The translations under genes were made by a program, and so were the position numbers. DNA of 64,000 nucleotides, from contig CAWHEU010000026.1 in assembly GCA_963828465.1 (NCBI GenBank), positions 32,001 to 96,000 on the forward strand. Reading direction: 5' to 3'. Of the stretch, positions 8,948 to 64,000 are shown one piece after another (positions within the stretch are counted from its first letter, which is position 1; each line of letters starts with the position of its first letter). This DNA is from an uncultured Acidobacteriota bacterium. GTDB lineage: Bacteria; Actinomycetota; Acidimicrobiia; Spongiisociales; ZC4RG35. The notes below the pieces were generated by a model. That model was not told where the DNA came from, did no database searches, and saw only the letters and a program-made list of their open reading frames with translations.

Positions 8948-9814
8948 ATGGAGTACGCCGAGATCCTCTACGAGAAGCGTGACGACGCCGCCTGGATCGG
9001 GATCAACAGGCCGGAAGTGCGCAACGCCTTCCGCGAGCAGACGCTCGACGAGCTGGCCCATGCGCTCGAATCGACCCGACACGATCCCACGATCGTGGCC
9101 GCCGTGGTCTATGGCGTCGGGGGCCATTTCTCGGCCGGCGGTGACTTCCACGCCATGATGAAGCTGAACAAGGCCAACTCGTACATGTGGAACGACCGCA
9201 TGCTCAAAGTGGCGATGACCTGCCGCAACCTGCCCATCCCAGTGATCGCCATGGTGGAGGGCGCCTGTGTCGGAGGCGGCCACGAGTTGATGCTGTGGTG
9301 CGACCTGGTGATCACGGCCGATGACGCAACCTTCGGCCAGACCGGTGCCCGTGTAGGCGCCTGCCCGACCGTTGGGGCAACCCAGTACATCGCCAAGCTG
9401 ATTGGGGAGCGCCGGGCCAAGGAGATGATCTTCCTCTGCAAGCGGTACACGGGGGCGGAGGCGGCGGAGATCGGCTTGGCCAATGAGGCGTTGCCAGCCG
9501 CCGAGTTGCAAGTACGGGTCGAGGAGATCGTCCAGCAGATGAAGGGCTACTCGTCGCAGACCCTCCGGGCTACCAAGGTGTCGCTGAACTTCGAGTCCGA
9601 CGCCCTCTACCCGTCCTGGCAGCACGGCATGGAGTTGCTGGCCAACATCTGGGGCACGGAGGAGAGCCTGGAGGGCATGAACGCTTTCCTGGAGAAGCGA
9701 CCTGCCGACTTCCATCAGTTCCGTGTCCGGAACAAGAACGCCCTCGATACATATCTCGACGACTTCGATGAGGGTCGCAACCAGAGCGAGGCTTCGCAGG
9801 CCGCCCGGAAATGA
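8948..9814 (+). CDS. Crotonase-family enzyme, MenB/BadI-like (possible ring-opening beta-ketoacyl-CoA hydrolase)
   Basis: INRPEVRNAF, FSAGGD, VGGGHEL, FGQTGARVG, GERRAKEM. Confidence 0.8.
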   Translation: MEYAEILYEKRDDAAWIGINRPEVRNAFREQTLDELAHALESTRHDPTIVAAVVYGVGGHFSAGGDFHAMMKLNKANSYMWNDRMLKVAMTCRNLPIPVIAMVEGACVGGGHELMLWCDLVITADDATFGQTGARVGACPTVGATQYIAKLIGERRAKEMIFLCKRYTGAEAAEIGLANEALPAAELQVRVEEIVQQMKGYSSQTLRATKVSLNFESDALYPSWQHGMELLANIWGTEESLEGMNAFLEKRPADFHQFRVRNKNALDTYLDDFDEGRNQSEASQAARK

Positions 9815-11004
9815 CTGCTGAGGGCGCCCTGACCGGTCTCAGGGTGATCGATCTCTCCCGGGTTTTGGCCGGCCCTCTTTGCACTCAGACCCTCGGTGAC
9901 CTGGGGGCGGAGGTGATCAAGGTGGAGCGGCCGGGAGAGGGCGACGACACCCGCAACTGGGGACCGCCGTACGCCGGGCCGCTCTCCGCCTACTTCATCG
10001 GAGTGAATCGCAACAAGAGGAGCCTCGCCCTCGACCTGTCCCGACCCGAGGGGCGGGCGGTGCTCGACCGGCTGATCCGCAGCGGCGATGTGTTGGTCGA
10101 CAATTTCAAGCAAGGGACACTCGCCCGCTGGGGTTTCGACGACGCTTGGTTCGATGCGAATGCCCCTGCCGTGATCCGTTGCTCGATCACCGGCTACGGA
10201 TCGACCGGGCCGAAGTCGGAGATGCCCGGCTACGACTTCATCCTCCAGGCAGAGACCGGCCTCATGGCGATAACCGGTGAGCAAGACGGGACGCCGATGA
10301 AGTTGGGGGTGGCCATCGTGGATCTTTGCACCGGAATGCAGGCGACGATCGCGATCCTCGCCGCCCTCGAGGCGCGACGACGGAACGGTCGGGGACAGCG
10401 TTGTGAAGTGAATCTGCACGACACCGGTCTCCACCTCCTGGCCAATGTCGCTTCCAACTACCTGGTGTCGGGTGACGAGGCGGCTCGCTACGGAAACGGC
10501 CACCCGAACATCGTCCCCTACCGAACGTATGCGGCGTCAGACGGTGAGTTGGCCCTCGCCGTGGGCAACGACCGGCAGTTCGCAGTGCTGGTGGGGGAGG
10601 TCGGGCACCCGGAGTGGGCTGAAGACCCCCGTTTCGCCACCAATCCGGAACGAGTTCGAAACCGCTACCTCGTCGATGAGATGGTGGGCCGGGTCATGGC
10701 GACCAGGAGTAGGGCGGAGTGGGTCGAGACCTTCGATCGCATCGGGGTCCCGTCCGGCCCCATCAATCGAATCTCCGAAGCGCTATCCAGCCCGCAAGCC
10801 CTGGCCCGGGAGATGGTGATGGAGAACGAGCACAGCGTCGCCGGGAGGGTCAGCACTCTGGGCTTGCCCATCGAGATGGCGGAAACACCTTCCTCGGTGC
10901 GTCGCGAGCCACCGATGCTGGGGGCGGATACCGATGCGGTCTTGGGAGAGCTGGGCTACTCGGTCGAGGAGGTCGCCGGGTTGCGGTCGGCCGGCGTGGT
11001 CTGA
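9811..11004 (+). CDS. CaiB/BaiF class III CoA-transferase
   Basis: DLSRVLAGP, LGAEVIKVE, NRNKRS, PGYD. Confidence 0.92.
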   Translation: MTAEGALTGLRVIDLSRVLAGPLCTQTLGDLGAEVIKVERPGEGDDTRNWGPPYAGPLSAYFIGVNRNKRSLALDLSRPEGRAVLDRLIRSGDVLVDNFKQGTLARWGFDDAWFDANAPAVIRCSITGYGSTGPKSEMPGYDFILQAETGLMAITGEQDGTPMKLGVAIVDLCTGMQATIAILAALEARRRNGRGQRCEVNLHDTGLHLLANVASNYLVSGDEAARYGNGHPNIVPYRTYAASDGELALAVGNDRQFAVLVGEVGHPEWAEDPRFATNPERVRNRYLVDEMVGRVMATRSRAEWVETFDRIGVPSGPINRISEALSSPQALAREMVMENEHSVAGRVSTLGLPIEMAETPSSVRREPPMLGADTDAVLGELGYSVEEVAGLRSAGVV

Positions 11005-39512: not shown

Positions 39513-39584
39513 TGGGGGGTGGTGTAACCGGTAGCACAGCAGGTTTTGGTCCTGTAAGAGCGGGTTCGAGTCCTGCCCCCCCAG
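39513..39584 (+). tRNA. tRNA-Gln (TTG)
   Basis: Acceptor TGGGGGG/CCCCCCA, anticodon arm GCAGG-TTTTGGT-CCTGT, T-arm GCGGG-TTCGAGT-CCTGC; usual position before glmU. Confidence 0.95.
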
Positions 39585-58664: not shown

Positions 58665-59150
58665 CTAGTGGAGGTCGATTCGGATCTGGACGTTGTCTTG
58701 GGCTGCCTTGGCGATGTCGCCGGGGTTTGGGTGGCGGTTCTCGTCGAGCTTCACACGGAAGAAGCGGGCGTCTCCTGGGTTGTGCCGTAGGTAGACGTCC
58801 AAGCCTGCGGCGATCTCCTCGGTGTCGGTGCACACATCGGCGACCCCGGTCAAAGTCTGACCTTTCACCACGACGGTCACCGGAGCACCACCGTGAAGAT
58901 TCCGCCACCAGGAGAAGGGTGAGTAGCAGAACACTGTTTGTCCTTGCTGCATGTAGCCGACGGGGAAGTTGTAGGTCTGTCCTGTTTGTTTGCCCTTGAA
59001 CTGGAGCATCATGAGCGTCTTGCTGCCGATCCCCCTGTTCAAGAACAGTCGCATGACGGGATTGATCGCCCAACGTGTGAGGAAATTGAATACTGGCCCG
59101 GCGAGCGTGCGCATCGAGGAGGTTGGTGTCGACTGGTTAGGTGAGGTCAT
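58665..59150 (-). CDS. Deazaflavin (F420)-dependent nitroreductase-like protein (DUF385/Ddn fold)
   Basis: NPVMR...L.FKGKQTG..Y..PV.Y...WWRNL. Confidence 0.75.
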   Translation of the reverse strand: MTSPNQSTPTSSMRTLAGPVFNFLTRWAINPVMRLFLNRGIGSKTLMMLQFKGKQTGQTYNFPVGYMQQGQTVFCYSPFSWWRNLHGGAPVTVVVKGQTLTGVADVCTDTEEIAAGLDVYLRHNPGDARFFRVKLDENRHPNPGDIAKAAQDNVQIRIDLH

Positions 59151-59175
59151 TCGGCCTCCGGAGTGCAGTGCGTGG

Positions 59176-59207
59176 TACTCAGATTATAACTAGATATACT
59201 ATGAGTA
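59176..59207. promoter_or_regulatory. 32-bp inverted repeat, probable PadR operator
   Basis: TACTCA-gat-TATA-a-CTAG-a-TATA-cta-TGAGTA between divergent genes. Confidence 0.7.
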
Positions 59208-59848
59208 TGTCAAGCTCAGCAGGTCGCCAGACACCGAAGCGGTCCTCACTCGGGTTGATGGTGCTCTGGCAGCTGATCGGTGAACCGATGCACACCTATC
59301 GCATGCAGAAACTGATCGAGGCCCAGGGAAAGCACCGTGTGGTGAATGTGCGCTCACCGGCGAGCCTGTATCAGACGATCAAGCGCCTGGAACATCATGG
59401 GCTGATTGAGGTCAAGGAGACGATCCGCGGCAGCAGCCAACCCGACCGGACGGTGTACACCATCACCGAATCCGGTCGAGACACAGCACGTGAATGGTTG
59501 CGAGAGATGCTGGTTGAAACCCGAGGCGACTATCCGGAGTTCATCGCTGCCGTATCGATCCTTTTCGTTATGTCGCCGGCAGAGGCACGAGAACTGCTCG
59601 AGGAGCGGGCGGAGCGAGTGGCGGCCGATCTCGCCGAGGCTGAAGTCGAGCTCGCTGCCAATCCGGGGCTTCCCGGGCTGTTCCTCTTAGACGAGGAGTA
59701 TCGGCGCGCCGTGCTACAAGCCGAGTTGTCGTGGCTGCGAGGCGTCTCCGCCCAGATACGAGGTGGCCGGCTCACTTGGGACGAGGACTGGATCCGGGAA
59801 GTGGGCGCCAACTTCAATCCGACCAACGAAGATGAGGCCCGTCGGTAA
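59201..59848 (+). CDS. PadR family transcriptional regulator
   Basis: EPMHTY.M, ASLYQTIKRL...GLI, PDRTVYTITESGR; start 59201 or 59207. Confidence 0.9.
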   Translation: MSMSSSAGRQTPKRSSLGLMVLWQLIGEPMHTYRMQKLIEAQGKHRVVNVRSPASLYQTIKRLEHHGLIEVKETIRGSSQPDRTVYTITESGRDTAREWLREMLVETRGDYPEFIAAVSILFVMSPAEARELLEERAERVAADLAEAEVELAANPGLPGLFLLDEEYRRAVLQAELSWLRGVSAQIRGGRLTWDEDWIREVGANFNPTNEDEARR

Positions 59849-59917: not shown

Positions 59918-59973
59918 GTATTAGGACCTCTGAACACCCGAAAACGCCAATAAACATAGGGTTTGCGCGCTCT

Positions 59974-60887
59974 CTAGGTTTGGCTCGTTCCGGTGCTCAG
60001 TTCCTTTTGATCCTGAGTGGCCGTGGCGGTCCAGCCAAGGCGGCCCTTGGTGAAGTGCCGCGATGAGGATGGCGGGGATGATCGGGACTGCCAGGAGGAT
60101 GAGGAACTCGATGTCTTCTCCAACGGGCAGGAAGGCCTCATGGAACTGGCTCTGGGTGGTGGCGTTGTAGGAAGCATGAAAGAGCCCGACGATGAGCAGG
60201 CTGCGATGGGTGTTGTTATAGAACCAGGCCACGATGACTCGGCTGGCCAGTTGAGGGATGAAGAGGACACCGAGGAGAACAAGGCCATCGACCACAGATT
60301 CCGTTTCGACGATGAATCCGGGAATGTGGAACAGGGCGAACGGGACCGCGACGATGGCGGCGGCTCGGAGCGGCGTGAAGCGGCCTTGGAGTCTGTCGAA
60401 GAGGAACCCGGTCCACCCCACCTCTTCGGCAAAATTGGAGAGCAGGAAGGCAAAGGCCAGGCTCGGGAGGATGGAAGTGAAGAATCTCGGCCAGTTCTCC
60501 GCCACCGCGGATCGCCGGAGCTGTGCCGCCCGAGGCGATGGCGAGCACCAGGGTAAGGACTGTCGGTCCCAACGAGGCAAGCAGGTACCAGCCGATCCCA
60601 ACCCTCCAGCGCAGGCACCGTTGGACAAGGTCCCGTACCCCGCCTTTGCCGTGTACGGCCGAGGTGACGATGAAGGCCGGGACTGCGCTACCAAGGATGT
60701 GCGCGAGCAGGTCGTAGGGAGCGTGCCCATAGGGCAGCAGGTCTCGTCGGGTCAAGGCTGAGGACAGTGCGGCTGTCACGTTGACCGTGTAGACCATGAT
60801 CAGGAACGCGGCGACAGGGTGGCGTCCAATCCACCGCCAAAGCGGCGAGTACCAGGCGGCGCTCGGTTGAAGGGCGTCTTGGGACAT
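59974..60887 (-). pseudogene. CPBP/CAAX intramembrane protease, with frameshifts at about 60515 and 60053
   Basis: RHPVAAF...LRWRVG..WY; AEEVGWTGF, FHIP, LFHASYN; ends TKGRLG. Confidence 0.75.
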
Positions 60888-60970
60888 CTCAGTCCTCACG
60901 CTTCAAGCGACCAGAGGTCGGACGCTACTCGCGCATAGGAGGAGCGGGTCCTTGCGAGCTGGCGGCCCTA

Positions 60971-60998
60971 TCAACTTTTTCGCAAGATCGGCCGATGG
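60971..60998 (+). promoter_or_regulatory. Sigma28 (FliA/WhiG)-like promoter candidate TCAAC-N15-GCCGATGG
   Basis: GCCGAT -10 lies 6 nt before ATG 61005. Confidence 0.5.
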
Positions 60999-61004
60999 TC
61001 TTGC

Positions 61005-62354
61005 ATGTCTACCTGGCGCGCTAGCCGGTCGGCCCATCTCAATGGGGTATCGGCCACGGCCGATGCGCTGTCGCACGCGGCCTTATCGCCTCCGAAGGTC
61101 GAGGTCGGCGGTTGGCTGGAGAACTGGACGAACAGGGTCTCCGATCTGGCACGTCTCAGAGAGGCTCATCCCATGGTCGATGCGGTCATTGACGAGGTCG
61201 ATGTCAGGCGGATCCGGGTGGGAGACCAATGGCTTGCCGATTTTGCCTCATGCAACTACCTCGGGTTGGACTGGAACCCGGAGGTGATCGAAGCAATACC
61301 TGGCTATTTACGTCGTTGGGGTACACACCCCAGTTGGTCTCGGCTGCTGGGGAGCCCGATCATCTACGAGGAGATCGAAGAGCGGCTGACGAAGCTGTTG
61401 GCATGTGATGACGTCCTCCTCTTGCCGACGATCACCCACATCCACATGTCAGTGATCCCTCTATTGGCCGCCTCGGGAGTGGTCTTTCTCGATCAGCGGG
61501 CGCACAAGACCATCTTCGATGGATGCAGTGTCGCCCGGGGCAATGGAGCCACCATCCATCGCTTTCGACACAACGATTATGAGCACCTGGAACAGCTTTT
61601 GAAGTCAGACAAGCGTTCTCCGCGTGTCATAGCTACCGATGGTGTCAACTCGATGACCGGGAATGCGCCAGACACCCATGAACTGGCCCGCTTGGCCAGA
61701 GAGTACGACGCTTTGCTCTACATCGACGACGCCCACGGCTTTGGCATCGTCGGTCATCGGCATCCCAATGAGCTGAGCCATTACGGAATGTCGGGTGACG
61801 GTCTGATCCGACATCAGGGTGAGAGCTACGACAACGTCGTGTTCGTTGCGGGGATGTCCAAGGCGTATTCATCGCTCCTTGCTTTCCTCGCTCTCCCCAC
61901 CCCGCTCAAGAACCTGCTCAAAGTGGCGGCGCCGCCCTACCTTTTCTCAGGACCGTCGCCGATCGCAACCCTCGCCACGGCGGCGGTCGGGCTCGAGGTC
62001 AACGAACGGCAGGGCGACCAATTTCGCTATGAAATCTGGCGGAAGACCAGATCGATCCTCGATTGCCTCGATGACCTGGGCATCTATACACCCAACACAT
62101 CGGGGTTCCCCATCATCGAGATTCCACTGGCCCGTCATGAGGATATCGACGAGGTGGGCCGCTTTCTGTTTCACCAAGGTATCTATGTGACCCTCGCCGC
62201 ATACCCGCTCGTTCCCAAACATGAGGTCGGGTTCAGGATCCAGGTCACCAGCGCCAACGATGACGACCAGATCGATCGGTTGTGCGAGGTCATCGTGGAG
62301 CTGGCCAGACGTTTTGCCTTTCAGGAACCAGACACGACCAGGCAAGTGAGCTGA
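61005..62354 (+). CDS. PLP-dependent alpha-oxoamine synthase (AONS/CqsA/LqsA family)
   Basis: DFASCNYLG, DQRAHKTIFDG, FRHND, DGVNSMTG, IDDAHGFG, GMSKAY (PLP Lys). Confidence 0.88.
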   Translation: MSTWRASRSAHLNGVSATADALSHAALSPPKVEVGGWLENWTNRVSDLARLREAHPMVDAVIDEVDVRRIRVGDQWLADFASCNYLGLDWNPEVIEAIPGYLRRWGTHPSWSRLLGSPIIYEEIEERLTKLLACDDVLLLPTITHIHMSVIPLLAASGVVFLDQRAHKTIFDGCSVARGNGATIHRFRHNDYEHLEQLLKSDKRSPRVIATDGVNSMTGNAPDTHELARLAREYDALLYIDDAHGFGIVGHRHPNELSHYGMSGDGLIRHQGESYDNVVFVAGMSKAYSSLLAFLALPTPLKNLLKVAAPPYLFSGPSPIATLATAAVGLEVNERQGDQFRYEIWRKTRSILDCLDDLGIYTPNTSGFPIIEIPLARHEDIDEVGRFLFHQGIYVTLAAYPLVPKHEVGFRIQVTSANDDDQIDRLCEVIVELARRFAFQEPDTTRQVS

Positions 62355-62357
62355 ATC

Positions 62358-64000
62358 ATGGCCACCGGCGAGCTAAGGAGACTTCTCGGCACACCGGAGC
62401 CCGTGTCGCTGAGCTTTGTCCGCTCCAGGGAGTCAGGGTGGAAGATCTACTTCCTGGTCGGCTCCGTGGTGCTGGCCGGATTCCTCGTGATTCCATCATT
62501 GCGGGTTGGGCCCTTGTTCAACGTGATCGCCCTATCCGGTGCGCTCGCCATCATCTTCACGCTCAGGCGGCACCGTCCTGAGCAACGCATCCCCTGGCTT
62601 TTGGTTGCGGTAGGCCAAATCGTCTTCGTGGGTGGGGACATCATCACCTACAACTACGAGCGGTTCTTCGGTGGGGAGCCACCTTTCCCCTCGTTAGGAG
62701 ACCTCTTCTATCTGACTGTGTATCCGTTCCTGGTGGCAGGGATTCTCCTGATGATTCGCCGCCGCAGCCCGGGTCGAGATCGGGCGAGCCTGATCGACTC
62801 ACTGATCATCGGGTTCGGCGTAGGCACACTGTCGTGGGTCTTCCTCATCGCCCCATACCTCTATGACCCGACTCTGACTGTGTATCAGAAAGTGGTGGCC
62901 ATGGCCTATCCAGTCATGGACCTGGTCCTCCTCACCGTCGCCGTCCGTCTCGGCATGGGGGCAGGCAAACGATCGGCTGGCTTCTACTTGATGATGGGCT
63001 CGATCGGAGTCCTATTCATCACCGATGTCATATACGGCTGGATCGTTCTGCACGGGGGCTACGACAACTCCACAGGATACCTGGAAGCGGGTTGGGGTTT
63101 GTTCTACCTCCTGCTGGGAGCGTCGGCTCTGCACCTGACAACACCGTTGATCGAGACCCCCGAGCCCGAGTACGAGCCAACTCAGCCGCGCCTCAGGGTC
63201 CTGCTTCTGGCGTGCGCCGCCTTGATGGCTCCAGCGGTGAACATTGTTCAGTCCTTGCGCGGGGAGGCCGTTGACGTCCCGATTGTCTCGGCAGCCGGGG
63301 CTCTGATGTTCATCTTTGTGCTGGTGCGCCTCAACGGTCTTATGGTGGACATAACCCAATATCGAAGGACCGCCCGGGCGCTCACCGAGGCCGAGGCGAA
63401 GTATCGATCACTGGTGGAAGGGCTGCCCGCCGTCGTGTATGTCGCCGACTTCGGCGAGCAGGGTGATTTCACCTACGTCAGCCCGCAGATCGAGTCCGTG
63501 CTGGGTTTCAGGCCAGACGAGTTTCAGACAGCAGCGTTTTGGAAGGATCGCATCGTCCCAGAGGACAGGGCGCGTGCCGTAGACGCCGAACTGCGCCTGG
63601 CAGCTGGCAATAGCCGGCTCGAGGTCGAGTACCGGATCCTCGGAAAGGATGGCCGGGAGGTCTGGATACGAGAGGACGCTGATGCAGTCCGTGACGAAAA
63701 TGGCATTCCCCTTTATCTGCAAGGGGTGATGTACGACGTCACCGAGCAGAAGACCATCGAACAGAAATTGGTCAAAGCCCTCGAGACCGAGAAAGAGACC
63801 AACCGAATTCGCTCCGAGTTCGTTCTGATGATCAACCACGAGCTTCGCACCCCACTCACGAGCGTCGTGTCCGGCGCCGAGGTGATTGCCGACCTCGATC
63901 TGCCCGAGGACGACCGACAGATGATCATCGCGGACATGCTGCGGGACGGTAGACGACTGGATGGGCTGATCTCCCAGATGTTGACGGTCGCCCGCATAGA
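62358..64000 (+). CDS. Polytopic membrane sensor histidine kinase (about 10 TM + PAS + HisKA), 3' truncated by window
   Basis: Not in the ORF track because there is no stop. My translation: PFPSLGDLFYL, AYPVMDL, PAS YRSLVE.LP...YVSP...EYRI...W...DVTEQK, NHELRTPLT with His codon at 63837 in frame. Confidence 0.9.
   Translation, partial: MATGELRRLLGTPEPVSLSFVRSRESGWKIYFLVGSVVLAGFLVIPSLRVGPLFNVIALSGALAIIFTLRRHRPEQRIPWLLVAVGQIVFVGGDIITYNYERFFGGEPPFPSLGDLFYLTVYPFLVAGILLMIRRRSPGRDRASLIDSLIIGFGVGTLSWVFLIAPYLYDPTLTVYQKVVAMAYPVMDLVLLTVAVRLGMGAGKRSAGFYLMMGSIGVLFITDVIYGWIVLHGGYDNSTGYLEAGWGLFYLLLGASALHLTTPLIETPEPEYEPTQPRLRVLLLACAALMAPAVNIVQSLRGEAVDVPIVSAAGALMFIFVLVRLNGLMVDITQYRRTARALTEAEAKYRSLVEGLPAVVYVADFGEQGDFTYVSPQIESVLGFRPDEFQTAAFWKDRIVPEDRARAVDAELRLAAGNSRLEVEYRILGKDGREVWIREDADAVRDENGIPLYLQGVMYDVTEQKTIEQKLVKALETEKETNRIRSEFVLMINHELRTPLTSVVSGAEVIADLDLPEDDRQMIIADMLRDGRRLDGLISQMLTVARI

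What the first reader, a model, noticed from the sequence alone, without database searches (positions are those of the whole stretch)
60971..64000. AONS/CqsA-family synthase coupled to a polytopic PAS histidine kinase: candidate actinobacterial autoinducer synthase/receptor pair
Seen: a full alpha-oxoamine synthase (61005-62354) is followed 3 nt later by an ~10-TM + PAS + HisKA kinase. No bioA/bioD/bioB, tdh, ACP or lipid genes are nearby, and the pair sits in an accessory zone. The enzyme departs from BioF motifs (SCNYLG, THPSWSRLL, HKTIFDG, DGVNSMTG). Established: CqsA/LqsA/JqsA are AONS-fold PLP enzymes that make alpha-amino/hydroxyketone autoinducers and are encoded beside their cognate membrane kinases in Proteobacteria. 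Inference: this is an analogous acyl-CoA + amino acid/SAM-derived ketone signalling circuit with a non-CqsS membrane sensor. From memory, similar enzymes occur next to or fused with same-type membrane GGDEF/EAL sensors in other actinobacteria; I could not verify this.
Basis: partly seen in the sequence, partly recalled or inferred. Interest (0 to 1): 0.82.

Follow-up and report, generated by a model that had tools for sequence, protein, structure and literature searches.

The report
Aminoketone synthase, membrane sensor, exporter module
A vitamin-B6 enzyme that probably makes a lipid-like amino-ketone lies in one operon with a ten-helix membrane sensor kinase and an exporter; this trio is conserved, reshuffled and even fused across Actinomycetota, and looks like an undescribed circuit for sensing a self-made signal.

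Summary
Window 61005-62354 encodes a 449-aa alpha-oxoamine synthase (AOS). Three nt later starts a 10-helix + PAS + HisKA/HATPase kinase, 740 aa once read past the window end. An MFS_3 transporter follows with a 4-nt overlap, and no response regulator is nearby.

The AOS is not BioF, KBL, SPT or CqsA. It falls below every NCBIfam cut-off and lies outside E. coli BioF/Kbl on a tree. Its nearest relatives are C-terminal AOS domains of FAAL-ACP-AOS proteins. The genome shows no BioB or BioD.

In 74 of 80 homologous loci (57 of 59 with full flanks) the same Pfam-less membrane domain lies within 5 kb on the same strand, across at least nine arrangements. It carries PAS-GGDEF-EAL, PAS-HK or HisKA_3-HK outputs, and TM-GGDEF-EAL-AOS single-protein fusions are common. 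MFS_3 co-occurs in 46 of 80 loci.

The membrane domain is a remote homologue of that of a Streptomyces protein that is probably CdgC.

Best reading (about 0.5): a self-made aminoketone is exported and then sensed in the membrane. Against an obligate pairing, the domain is more widespread than the AOS, and sensors without an AOS exist. Chemistry and ligand are untested. I found nothing on this in the literature searched.

The parts
60900..61004 (+). Intergenic region upstream of the AOS gene. It is shared with a divergent, frame-broken CPBP gene and is the presumed promoter region.
   Evidence: Read. Nothing here passed the consensus promoter scan and there is no Rfam match. That it acts as a promoter is inferred only.
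61005..62354 (+). Alpha-oxoamine synthase (AOS), a PLP-dependent acyl-thioester:amino-acid C-acyltransferase of 449 aa. It belongs to an unnamed clade.
   Evidence: Pfam and NCBIfam hits. Catalytic H167, S216, D241, H244 and K286 are invariant in 58/58 clade sequences. The clade has 98* support on the tree.
62358..63377 (+). Ten-helix membrane sensor domain of the kinase (aa 1-340). It belongs to no Pfam family.
   Evidence: No Pfam hit at E<=10. AF2 model with pLDDT 89.5. Invariant W80, D94, Y118, Y122, R136, D147, Y184, P185, D188, D223 and W246. Homologues lie beside the AOS in 74/80 loci.
63399..63740 (+). PAS domain of the kinase (aa 348-461).
   Evidence: PAS_3 E 8e-20 and PAS E 1e-10.
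63810..64000 (+). Start of the HisKA dimerisation/phospho-acceptor domain (aa 485-549). The gene runs on to window-equivalent 64580 and includes HATPase_c (aa 592-706). The MFS_3 transporter gene follows at window-equivalent 64577-65866, outside the window.
   Evidence: L001 coordinate + 56000 = window coordinate. MFS_3 hit E 4e-43.

Best explanation
The window carries a three-gene operon: AOS, then a 10-TM/PAS histidine kinase, then an MFS_3 transporter. I read it as a self-contained 'make, export, sense' module.

- Make. The AOS condenses a fatty-acyl thioester (acyl-CoA or acyl-ACP) with an amino acid to give an alpha-amino ketone. It is shown that the enzyme is an AOS with an intact active site, is not BioF/KBL/SPT/CqsA by family models, and has acyl-ACP-fed FAAL-ACP-AOS domains as nearest relatives. 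The substrates and the product are inferred.
- Export. The MFS_3 (EntS-like) transporter exports the product. The direction of transport is inferred.
- Sense. The amphiphilic amine is recognised inside the membrane by the 10-helix domain. By predicted topology, its invariant Asp, Tyr and Trp residues (D94, D115, Y118, Y122, Y184, D188, D223, W246) lie in the outer-leaflet halves of helices 3-8. This step is inferred.
- Transduce. The signal passes through PAS to the HisKA/HATPase core and on to an unlinked response regulator.

In most other Actinomycetota the same input domain drives PAS-GGDEF-EAL, that is c-di-GMP turnover. This genome shows no GGDEF or EAL domain at all, which fits its kinase version.

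The frequent sensor-AOS fusions suggest that the sensor also controls or localises the synthase. That would resemble the RpfC/RpfF feedback of DSF signalling, which I recall from memory and did not check here.
For: Operon: the gene gaps are +3 nt and -4 nt.

Linkage:
- The TM-domain homologue lies within 5 kb of the AOS in 74/80 loci, and all 80 TM hits are on the AOS strand. The figure is 57/59 for loci with 5-kb flanks on both sides.
- In an even sample of the phylum, 30 of 34 genomes that carry the AOS clade show the adjacency.

Arrangements seen:
- AOS-TMHK-MFS
- AOS-TM.GGDEF.EAL-MFS
- AOS-TPR-MFS-TM.GGDEF.EAL
- TM.GGDEF.EAL-AOS-MFS
- MFS-AOS-TMHK
- TM.HisKA_3 kinase-AOS
- the single protein TM-PAS-GGDEF-EAL-AOS, in 17/18 Streptomyces loci
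- the single protein TM-GGDEF-EAL-AOS, 115 of the best 120 longer homologues (484 have E<=1e-60)
- a separate FAAL-ACP-AOS divergently beside a TM hybrid kinase

The input domain stays constant while the output domain changes.

AOS and MFS travel together. In one syntenic slot between leuC and GNAT-leuA, 7 loci carry AOS plus MFS beside the sensor, and 5 genomes carry the sensor alone with neither. MFS_3 is present in 46/80 loci.

Enzyme: the active-site residues are invariant. On the tree the window clade (98*) neighbours the FAAL-ACP/PKS-terminal AOS group (99*), and both are split from E. coli BioF/Kbl by a 100* branch.

Not biotin: no BioB or BioD hit in the genome.

Output matches the host: 0 GGDEF and 0 EAL tblastn hits in this genome.

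Topology: Arg/Lys are clustered in the loops at about residues 70-77, 133-141, 203-206 and 276-280, which places the N-terminus and PAS inside. This is read.
Against: - No chemistry, ligand binding or phenotype is known. Substrates and product are inferred only from relatives.
- The TM domain occurs in 133/401 sampled genomes against 34 with the AOS clade.
- Close relatives of the sensor (45-48% identity in the TM domain) exist in 5 genomes with no AOS and no MFS. A Streptomyces protein that is probably CdgC also has no AOS beside it. The domain therefore works without this enzyme. Those could be 'solo receptors', but equally the domain may sense something more general.
- A C-terminal position in the fusions is where output domains usually sit. 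This fits 'the sensor controls the enzyme' as well as 'the enzyme feeds the sensor'.
- Two Frankia/Protofrankia loci with full flanks have the AOS but no TM domain within 8 kb.
- No response regulator is linked.
- The fold search gives only a generic 7TM-bundle resemblance (best Z 11.5, below the tool's caution level for helical bundles).
- Loci from related organisms are not independent observations.
Confidence: 0.5

Rival explanations
1. Envelope-lipid homeostasis. The AOS makes a long-chain amino-ketone or sphingoid-like base that becomes a membrane or envelope lipid, and MFS_3 flips or exports it. The 10-TM domain senses the state of the membrane rather than a diffusible signal, and tunes the enzyme (directly in the fusions) together with c-di-GMP or phosphorelay outputs.
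For: - The nearest AOS relatives are fed by FAAL-ACP, so they use long acyl chains. Bacterial SPT is among the best solved-structure hits at 127 bits.
- The AOS sits at the C-terminal, output-like end of the fusions.
- The sensor family is wider than the AOS, and closely related sensors lack it. That is expected if the input is a general membrane property.
Against: - All SPT models score far below their cut-offs: 125-159 bits against 500-670.
- No ceramide, reductase or acyltransferase partner recurs in the neighbourhoods. The only families shared widely are the AOS, the sensor and MFS_3.
- The AOS+MFS cassette is present in some genomes and absent in close relatives at the same locus, and was not found in the 3 sampled genomes of this genome's own family. 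That is unusual for a core envelope lipid.
Confidence: 0.27
2. Specialised-metabolite cassette. AOS plus MFS_3 make and export a small bioactive amine or pyrazine-type compound aimed at other organisms. The sensor merely co-regulates production or confers self-protection.
For: - AOS and the exporter travel together as an accessory cassette.
- The organism is found in soil metagenomes.
- The relatives sit at the ends of PKS-like megasynthases.
Against: - A one-enzyme pathway that is 55-75% identical across several classes is unusually conserved for an antibiotic.
- Covalent fusion of the enzyme to a GGDEF-EAL sensor in hundreds of proteins is hard to explain by co-regulation alone.
Confidence: 0.13
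3. An ordinary BioF or KBL paralogue that lies next to an unrelated kinase by chance.
For: Automatic annotation of homologues calls them 8-amino-7-oxononanoate synthase. The best NCBIfam hit is the bioF model.
Against: - The bioF score is 186 bits against a cut-off of 426.
- No BioB or BioD hit in the genome.
- The clade is split from E. coli BioF/Kbl by a 100* branch.
- The adjacency recurs in 74/80 loci in many arrangements, with fusions.
Confidence: 0.02

Closest known systems
CqsA/CqsS (Vibrio), LqsA/LqsS (Legionella) and JqsA/JqsS (Janthinobacterium) alpha-hydroxyketone quorum sensing
   Same: An AOS-fold PLP enzyme is encoded beside a polytopic membrane sensor kinase that has no large extracytoplasmic domain. 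The product is expected to be an amphiphilic ketone sensed within the membrane. The general properties of these systems come from abstracts seen in the listing and from recall.
   Different: - The enzyme is not in the CqsA family: model NF005526 gives 89.6 bits against a cut-off of 428, and CqsA structures give only 62 bits, the lowest tier of AOS hits.
- The receptor has 10 helices, not the 6TM design stated for CqsS (abstract of PMC4821796, listing). It also has a PAS domain.
- The usual output elsewhere is GGDEF-EAL, not a kinase.
- An MFS_3 exporter belongs to the unit.
- Synthase-receptor fusions are common.
- The phylum is Actinomycetota.
Streptomyces CdgC (SCO5511 / SVEN_5187), a membrane-bound developmental diguanylate cyclase
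   Same: The architecture is TM-PAS-GGDEF-EAL. The membrane region of a Streptomyces protein with this architecture matches the TM-domain profile with hhalign probability 98.7%, E 1.9e-16, over 193 columns, and keeps the PSxxD, AYPxxD and D..GW motifs. That protein is the only TM-domain hit in each of the three AOS-lacking Streptomyces genomes searched, and it lies next to an ilvB-like TPP enzyme. The signals sensed by CdgC are stated to be unknown (PMC6205966, passages read). The SCO5511/SVEN_5187 orthology is from PMC7374567 (passages).
   Different: - That this protein is the CdgC orthologue is my inference. The SCO5511-ilvB adjacency is recalled, not checked.
- CdgC has a degenerate EAL domain. 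The AOS-linked sensors keep GGDEF in 59/63 and EAL in 57/63.
- CdgC has no AOS or MFS_3 neighbour in the locus examined.
- The window protein has a kinase output.
FAAL-ACP-AOS tridomain proteins and PKS-terminal AOS domains
   Same: These are the nearest sequence relatives outside the clade, at 35-44% identity. They share the motifs DFASCNYLG, HPSW(S/T)R, DGV.SM.G and YVDDAHGFG. One such protein lies divergently beside a hybrid kinase that carries the same TM domain.
   Different: The window enzyme stands alone, with no adenylation or carrier domain. It must take its acyl donor from the cellular pool. I know of no characterised member of this group to name (0 papers).
BioF, KBL, SPT and ALAS, the classical AOS enzymes
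   Same: Same fold and the same catalytic His/Ser/Asp/His/Lys set. The best solved-structure match is the Thermus AOS/KBL enzyme at 152 bits.
   Different: The window enzyme is below every equivalog cut-off and 26-28% identical to E. coli BioF/Kbl. It has a longer insert between the DDAHG motif and the catalytic Lys, and a conserved N-terminal extension. It has no pathway partners.
RpfC/RpfF of DSF signalling (recalled, not checked here)
   Same: A signal synthase physically coupled to its membrane sensor kinase, which allows feedback on synthesis. It is offered as an analogy for the sensor-AOS fusions.
   Different: The protein families are unrelated. Here the coupling is by covalent fusion in some lineages and is unproven where the genes are separate.

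Membership tests
Alpha-oxoamine synthase (AOS) family, PLP fold type I | Sequence membership: Aminotran_1_2 and homology to solved AOS enzymes | tested here: met
   Pfam E 6e-27. 49 PDB sequences match at E<=1e-8, all of them AOS-type enzymes.
Alpha-oxoamine synthase (AOS) family, PLP fold type I | Catalytic residues equivalent to E. coli BioF H133, S179, D204, H207 and K236 (numbering recalled; the residue identities were checked in the E. coli sequence) | tested here: met
   H167, S216, D241, H244 and K286 are conserved in 58/58 clade sequences.
BioF (8-amino-7-oxononanoate synthase) | Score over the TIGR00858 equivalog cut-off | tested here: not met
   186 bits against 426.45.
BioF (8-amino-7-oxononanoate synthase) | A biotin pathway (BioB, BioD) in the genome or neighbourhood | tested here: not met
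   No tblastn hit for E. coli BioB or BioD at E<=1e-5 in the 92%-complete genome.
CqsA/LqsA autoinducer synthases | Score over the NF005526 equivalog cut-off, or specific affinity to CqsA | tested here: not met
   89.6 bits against 428. CqsA structures score 62 bits, below SPT, KBL, BioF and ALAS. LqsA and CqsA could not be placed on the tree because no stored sequence was available.
CqsA/LqsA autoinducer synthases | Encoded beside a cognate polytopic membrane sensor | tested here: met
   3-nt gap in the window. 74/80 loci.
CqsS/LqsS-type receptor | 6-TM input domain | tested here: not met
   The model has ten helices. The 6TM design of CqsS comes from the abstract of PMC4821796 (listing). No direct sequence comparison with CqsS was possible.
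Serine palmitoyltransferase | Score over the NCBIfam SPT equivalog cut-offs | tested here: not met
   159, 149 and 125 bits against 500, 640 and 670.
HisKA-type sensor histidine kinase | HisKA with a phospho-acceptor His, plus HATPase_c | tested here: met
   HisKA E 2e-12 and HATPase_c E 3e-16. The H-box NHELRTPL and the DNGPG and GTGLGL boxes are visible.
HisKA-type sensor histidine kinase | A cognate response regulator encoded alongside | tested here: not met
   The next gene is MFS_3. tblastn with two REC queries gives no hit on contig C26 and a hit in only 1 of 80 related loci. Sensitivity with two queries is limited.
MFS_3 (EntS-like) transporters | Pfam PF05977 over the gathering score | tested here: met
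   148 bits against 27.
Described membrane sensor domains (MASE1-9, 7TMR-DISM, HisKA_7TM, 5TMR-LYT) | A Pfam model match over the TM region | tested here: not met
   0 families at E<=10 for the window domain. The only hits were chance-level, on a Streptomyces homologue: MASE5 E 1.6 and HlyIII E 0.02. ESM Atlas gives MASE3 and HisKA_7TM only as sub-0.9 leads.
7TM receptor-like fold (GPCR or rhodopsin type) | Structural superposition of the helical core | tested here: inconclusive
   VIA-align best Z 11.5, rmsd 3.6-4.9 A over 180-199 residues (model residues 44-264). This is below the tool's caution level of about 13 for helical bundles. Foldseek found nothing at E<=1e-3.
CdgC-type membrane input domain | Profile homology of the TM region | tested here: met
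   hhalign probability 98.7%, E 1.9e-16. That the target is CdgC is inferred.

The most novel reading that the evidence does not exclude
Actinomycetota possess a phylum-wide, so far unrecognised lipid-amine signalling system. A dedicated AOS makes a long-chain alpha-aminoketone, an MFS_3 pump releases it, and a new 10-helix intramembrane receptor domain binds it through an Asp/Tyr/Trp pocket in the outer leaflet. The same receptor domain forms the input of Streptomyces CdgC. The system feeds mostly into c-di-GMP, and so into development and biofilm decisions, or into a phosphorelay as in this genome. Strains that carry the receptor alone would listen without producing.
Probability: 0.33. Interest if true: 0.9.

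Novelty: new variant of a known kind. Interest (0 to 1): 0.8.

Why it matters
Known chemical signalling in Actinomycetota is dominated by gamma-butyrolactones and furans, which act through cytoplasmic TetR-type receptors (recalled). The inputs of the large membrane-bound c-di-GMP enzymes are stated to be unknown (PMC6205966).

This module gives a concrete, testable candidate ligand source for one widespread and unannotated membrane input domain. The AOS clade was found in 34 of 400 sampled genomes of the phylum, and the receptor domain in 132 of 400.

It offers natural experimental handles:
- fusion proteins in cultivable Streptomyces
- presence/absence variants of the synthase-exporter cassette at one locus
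- kinase and c-di-GMP versions of the same sensor

If confirmed, it would extend the CqsA/LqsA principle of an AOS-made ketone with a membrane sensor to Gram-positive bacteria, and would connect it to c-di-GMP.

Tried and rejected
- BioF/KBL reading: rejected.
- CqsA-family membership: rejected.
- Known sensor-domain families for the TM region: none by Pfam. ESM Atlas gave only unnamed actinobacterial clusters at 0.9 or above.
- Fold search: Foldseek against the PDB gave nothing at E<=1e-3. VIA-align wide gave GPCR- and rhodopsin-like 7TM bundles at Z<=11.5, which I treat as a generic helical arrangement.
- Complex prediction of the AOS (alignment A3) with the TM domain (alignment A1): 'no answer', score 0.00. 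I draw nothing from it.
- Response regulator: none found nearby.
- Promoter/terminator scan and Rfam: nothing useful at the operon.
- Expression: one rhizosphere metatranscriptome holds two contigs on the kinase gene (218 nt with 2 mismatches, 203 nt with 5) and only 35-38-nt scraps on the AOS. The tool warns that DNA can be present in such libraries, so transcription is not shown.
- Literature: 0 papers for GGDEF + EAL + 'oxoamine synthase'. 0 papers for 'oxoamine synthase' + 'fatty acyl-AMP ligase' + 'acyl carrier protein'. The 2 papers for '8-amino-7-oxononanoate synthase' + GGDEF are irrelevant by title and abstract, as are the 2 and 1 papers. Searches listed nothing on an actinobacterial AOS-sensor system. 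Subscription journals and supplementary files were not searched.
- A tree including SPT, ALAS, CqsA and LqsA could not be built because no stored sequences of these were available. Model and PDB scores stand in for it.
- The class of the window's organism was not determined.

Full report
WHAT IS THERE

Window 61005-62354 (+) is an ATG-started ORF of 449 aa (P0001). Three nt after its stop, at 62358, a second ORF starts and runs off the window. The window is G000:C26:32001-96000. Reading on in the contig (L001) shows the following.
- The second protein is 740 aa (P0003).
- A third gene, P0004 (429 aa), overlaps its stop by 4 nt.

Pfam assignments:
- P0001: Aminotran_1_2.
- P0003: PAS_3/PAS (348-461), HisKA (485-549) and HATPase_c (592-706), with nothing over residues 1-340. 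The TM region has no Pfam hit even at E<=10.
- P0004: MFS_3 (148 bits) and MFS_1.

Surrounding genes:
- Upstream: a CPBP/Rce1-like gene split over two frames on the minus strand, a PadR regulator, an alpha/beta hydrolase and a YibE/F protein.
- Downstream: two ORFs with no Pfam hit, an ECF sigma factor, a second CPBP protease and a beta-lactamase-fold protein.

No REC domain was detected on the contig with two REC queries.

THE ENZYME

P0001 matches every AOS-type NCBIfam model, but all below their cut-offs.

| Model | Score (bits) | Cut-off (bits) |
|---|---|---|
| bioF | 186 | 426 |
| BioF/Kbl subfamily | 163 | 535 |
| SPT | 159 | 500 |
| KBL | 152 | 460 |
| ALAS | 117 | 339 |
| CqsA-type | 89.6 | 428 |

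Scores against solved structures:

| Structure | Score (bits) |
|---|---|
| Thermus AOS/KBL | 152 |
| bacterial SPT | 127 |
| KBL | 117 |
| E. coli BioF | 86 |
| CqsA | 62 |

Further points on the enzyme:
- It is 26-28% identical to E. coli BioF and Kbl.
- The residues aligned with E. coli BioF H133, S179, D204, H207 and K236 are H167, S216, D241, H244 and K286. They are invariant in 58 of 58 clade sequences.
- The genome has a second AOS on contig C24 (316 bits bioF, 314 bits KBL). Its neighbours are not biotin genes.
- tblastn with E. coli BioB and BioD finds nothing in the genome.

Searching one representative per 50%-identity cluster of about 15 billion proteins gave 447 representatives at E<=1e-30.
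- After the clade itself, the nearest relatives (35-44% identity) are mostly C-terminal domains of proteins of 1050-1110 aa.
- Of 44 such proteins scanned, 35 carry AMP-binding plus PP-binding in front of the AOS. A few carry PKS domains.
- None of the 10 nearest stand-alone representatives reaches any named equivalog.

A 69-row tree (quick IQ-TREE, SH-aLRT support) gave this picture.
- The window enzyme sits in a clade of 30 rows (98*).
- The FAAL-ACP/PKS-terminal group of 27 rows (99*) neighbours it.
- A 100* branch of length 1.03 splits both from E. coli BioF, E. coli Kbl and the own-genome paralogue.

THE LINKAGE TEST

The clade is large and well conserved. Of the 8000 candidates scored, 7014 matched, and the best 120 are 65-98% identical. 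A scan of one genome per species found 418 loci. The best 80 were kept, with flanks. They come from Acidimicrobiia, Thermoleophilia/Solirubrobacterales/Gaiellaceae, Streptomyces, Actinoplanes, Frankia, Mycobacteriales and one Chloroflexota MAG.

tblastn with the separate parts of the window proteins gave these counts.
- A homologue of the TM domain lies within 5 kb of the AOS in 74 of 80 loci. All 80 such hits are on the AOS strand.
- Among the 59 loci with at least 5 kb on both sides, the figure is 57.
- The six loci without it are four short or cut contigs (L030, L048, L058, L074) and two Frankia/Protofrankia loci with full flanks (L064, L073).
- MFS_3 is within 5 kb in 46 of 80 loci (36 of 59).
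- Both the TM domain and MFS_3 are present in 43 of 80.

The domain behind the TM region varies: GGDEF-EAL in 61 loci, a kinase in 6, both kinds in 2, and unresolved at contig ends in 5. Pfam confirmed TM-PAS-GGDEF-EAL of about 1050-1090 aa and TM-PAS-HisKA-HATPase.

In 17 of 18 Streptomyces loci a single ORF of 1491-1668 aa runs from the TM domain through PAS-GGDEF-EAL into the AOS. Pfam was checked on two of these. The 18th locus is a 2.1-kb contig.

A search restricted to longer proteins found 484 with E<=1e-60. Of the best 120, 115 are TM-GGDEF-EAL-AOS, 4 are N-terminally short GGDEF-EAL-AOS, and 1 is AOS only. Many of these carry Solirubrobacterales names.

In genomes of family code f19 the upstream neighbour is TM + HisKA_3 + HATPase_c.

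In an even sample of 400 other genomes of the phylum:
- The clade (450 bits or more) is in 34 genomes, and in 0 of 3 from the window's own family.
- In 30 of the 34, a listed TM hit lies within 5 kb on the same contig. G274 has no TM hit. For G176, G228 and G241 the relevant rows were not among those listed.
- One of the 34, and one of the 30, is the unpublished genome G120.

A more distant AOS (40% identity) in G384 is the C-terminal domain of a 1165-aa FAAL-ACP-AOS protein. It lies divergently beside a protein made of the same TM domain plus HisKA-HATPase-REC-REC-Hpt. G395, of the same genus, has the same coordinates pattern.

WHAT SPEAKS AGAINST AN OBLIGATE PAIR

The TM domain is found in 133 of 401 genomes, often in several copies.

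Five genomes of family code f27 (94-97% complete) carry TM-PAS-GGDEF-EAL proteins whose TM domain is 45-48% identical to the window's. They have no AOS hit in the genome at E<=1e-60, and no AOS or MFS_3 in 13-19 kb around the sensor. These sensors sit between leuC and GNAT-leuA. Loci L008, L010, L011, L012, L015, L016 and L017 share leuC on the upstream side, and where the locus reaches that far also GNAT-leuA (L008, L010, L011, L015). They carry the AOS, a TPR protein in L008, MFS_3 and sometimes a TM kinase next to the sensor. So the AOS and MFS_3 come and go together beside a resident sensor.

G154 has MFS_3 next to a TM hybrid kinase without an AOS.

The three Streptomyces genomes without the AOS that were searched each have one distant TM-domain homologue (profile E 1e-22 to 1e-25). 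The one examined is TM-PAS-GGDEF-EAL, 1108 aa, beside an ilvB-like TPP enzyme. hhalign against the TM profile gives 98.7% probability.
- I take this protein to be the CdgC orthologue.
- Papers describe CdgC/SCO5511/SVEN_5187 as 9-10TM-PAS-GGDEF-degenerate EAL with unknown input (passages read).
- The ilvB adjacency of SCO5511 is recalled, not checked.

THE MEMBRANE DOMAIN

An alignment of 47 AOS-linked TM domains has 18 invariant positions. They include D94, Y118, Y122, R136, D147, Y184, P185, D188, D223, G245, W246, R280 and R324, and D115 is nearly invariant.

The AlphaFold2 model (pLDDT 89.5, pTM 0.86) has ten long helices. Basic residues cluster in alternate loops, which places the N-terminus and the PAS-kinase part in the cytoplasm (read). 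On that topology most of the invariant acidic and aromatic residues fall in the outer halves of helices 3-8.

Fold searches gave no specific relative.

FIT TO THE HOST

This genome gave no tblastn hit to a GGDEF or an EAL query. That fits its carrying the kinase version as its only copy of the TM domain. In the AOS-linked GGDEF-EAL sensors both motifs are mostly intact: GGDEF in 59/63 and EAL in 57/63.

Near-identical DNA occurs in soil metagenomes. Transcription is not shown.

INTERPRETATION

It is shown that the AOS, this TM input domain and, less constantly, MFS_3 form a conserved functional unit in Actinomycetota. The TM domain is the constant partner and the signalling output is exchangeable.

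The following are inferred:
- The enzyme makes a lipid-like alpha-aminoketone.
- The pump exports it.
- The TM domain senses it.

The main rival is that the sensor monitors the membrane and governs a lipid-making enzyme. The fusions and the AOS-less sensors are neutral between the two readings, or lean slightly towards the rival. The accessory, cassette-like behaviour of AOS+MFS and the outward-facing conserved pocket lean towards a secreted signal.

I found no description of this coupling in the searched literature.

Noticed in passing
window 59921-60899 (-): A CPBP/Rce1-like intramembrane protease gene is split over two overlapping frames. The N-terminal part is ORF 60216-60899 and the C-terminal part, with the Rce1-like Pfam hit, is ORF 59921-60730. 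This is a frameshift or an assembly error. A second, intact CPBP gene lies about 7 kb downstream (L001 13065-13937, minus strand).
   Followed up: partly
window 59141-59848 (+): A PadR-family regulator lies two genes upstream of the operon. It is not conserved beside the AOS in the other loci (it is not among the shared families).
   Followed up: partly
whole genome G000: No tblastn hit to GGDEF or EAL queries, and none to E. coli BioB or BioD, in this 92%-complete genome. The organism may lack c-di-GMP signalling and biotin synthesis.
   Followed up: partly
G000:C24:78887-80101 (L085 6888-8102): A second AOS paralogue, ambiguous between BioF and KBL (316 and 314 bits). It lies near a PlsY-like acyltransferase and an MprF-flippase-like protein, not near biotin genes.
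   Followed up: partly
L092 2987-9806 (G384): A FAAL-ACP-AOS tridomain protein (1165 aa) lies divergently beside a hybrid kinase made of the same TM domain plus HisKA-HATPase-REC-REC-Hpt. This is a second, independent kind of AOS paired with this sensor domain.
   Followed up: partly
L008 5865-16826 versus L097 6942-18285: Both share the leuC ... GNAT-leuA slot. One holds AOS-TPR-MFS_3-sensor and the other holds two tandem sensors with no AOS or MFS_3. This is a presence/absence polymorphism of the synthase-exporter cassette.
   Followed up: yes
L008 about 9300-9988 (+): A TPR-like protein of roughly 230 aa is encoded between the AOS and MFS_3 in this lineage. It is absent from the window. It is read from the translation only, with no family search.
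   Followed up: no
L091 3593-6919 (G306, Streptomyces-like genome): The probable CdgC orthologue carries a remote homologue of the TM domain and keeps most of its acidic and aromatic motifs. This gives a lead on what class of input CdgC might sense.
   Followed up: partly
window 39513-39584 (+): A tRNA gene is the only Rfam match in the window.
   Followed up: no
window 60900-64000: Near-identical DNA is present in several soil metagenome runs from more than one study. In run X2, 8 of 9 contigs are at least 99% alike.
   Followed up: partly
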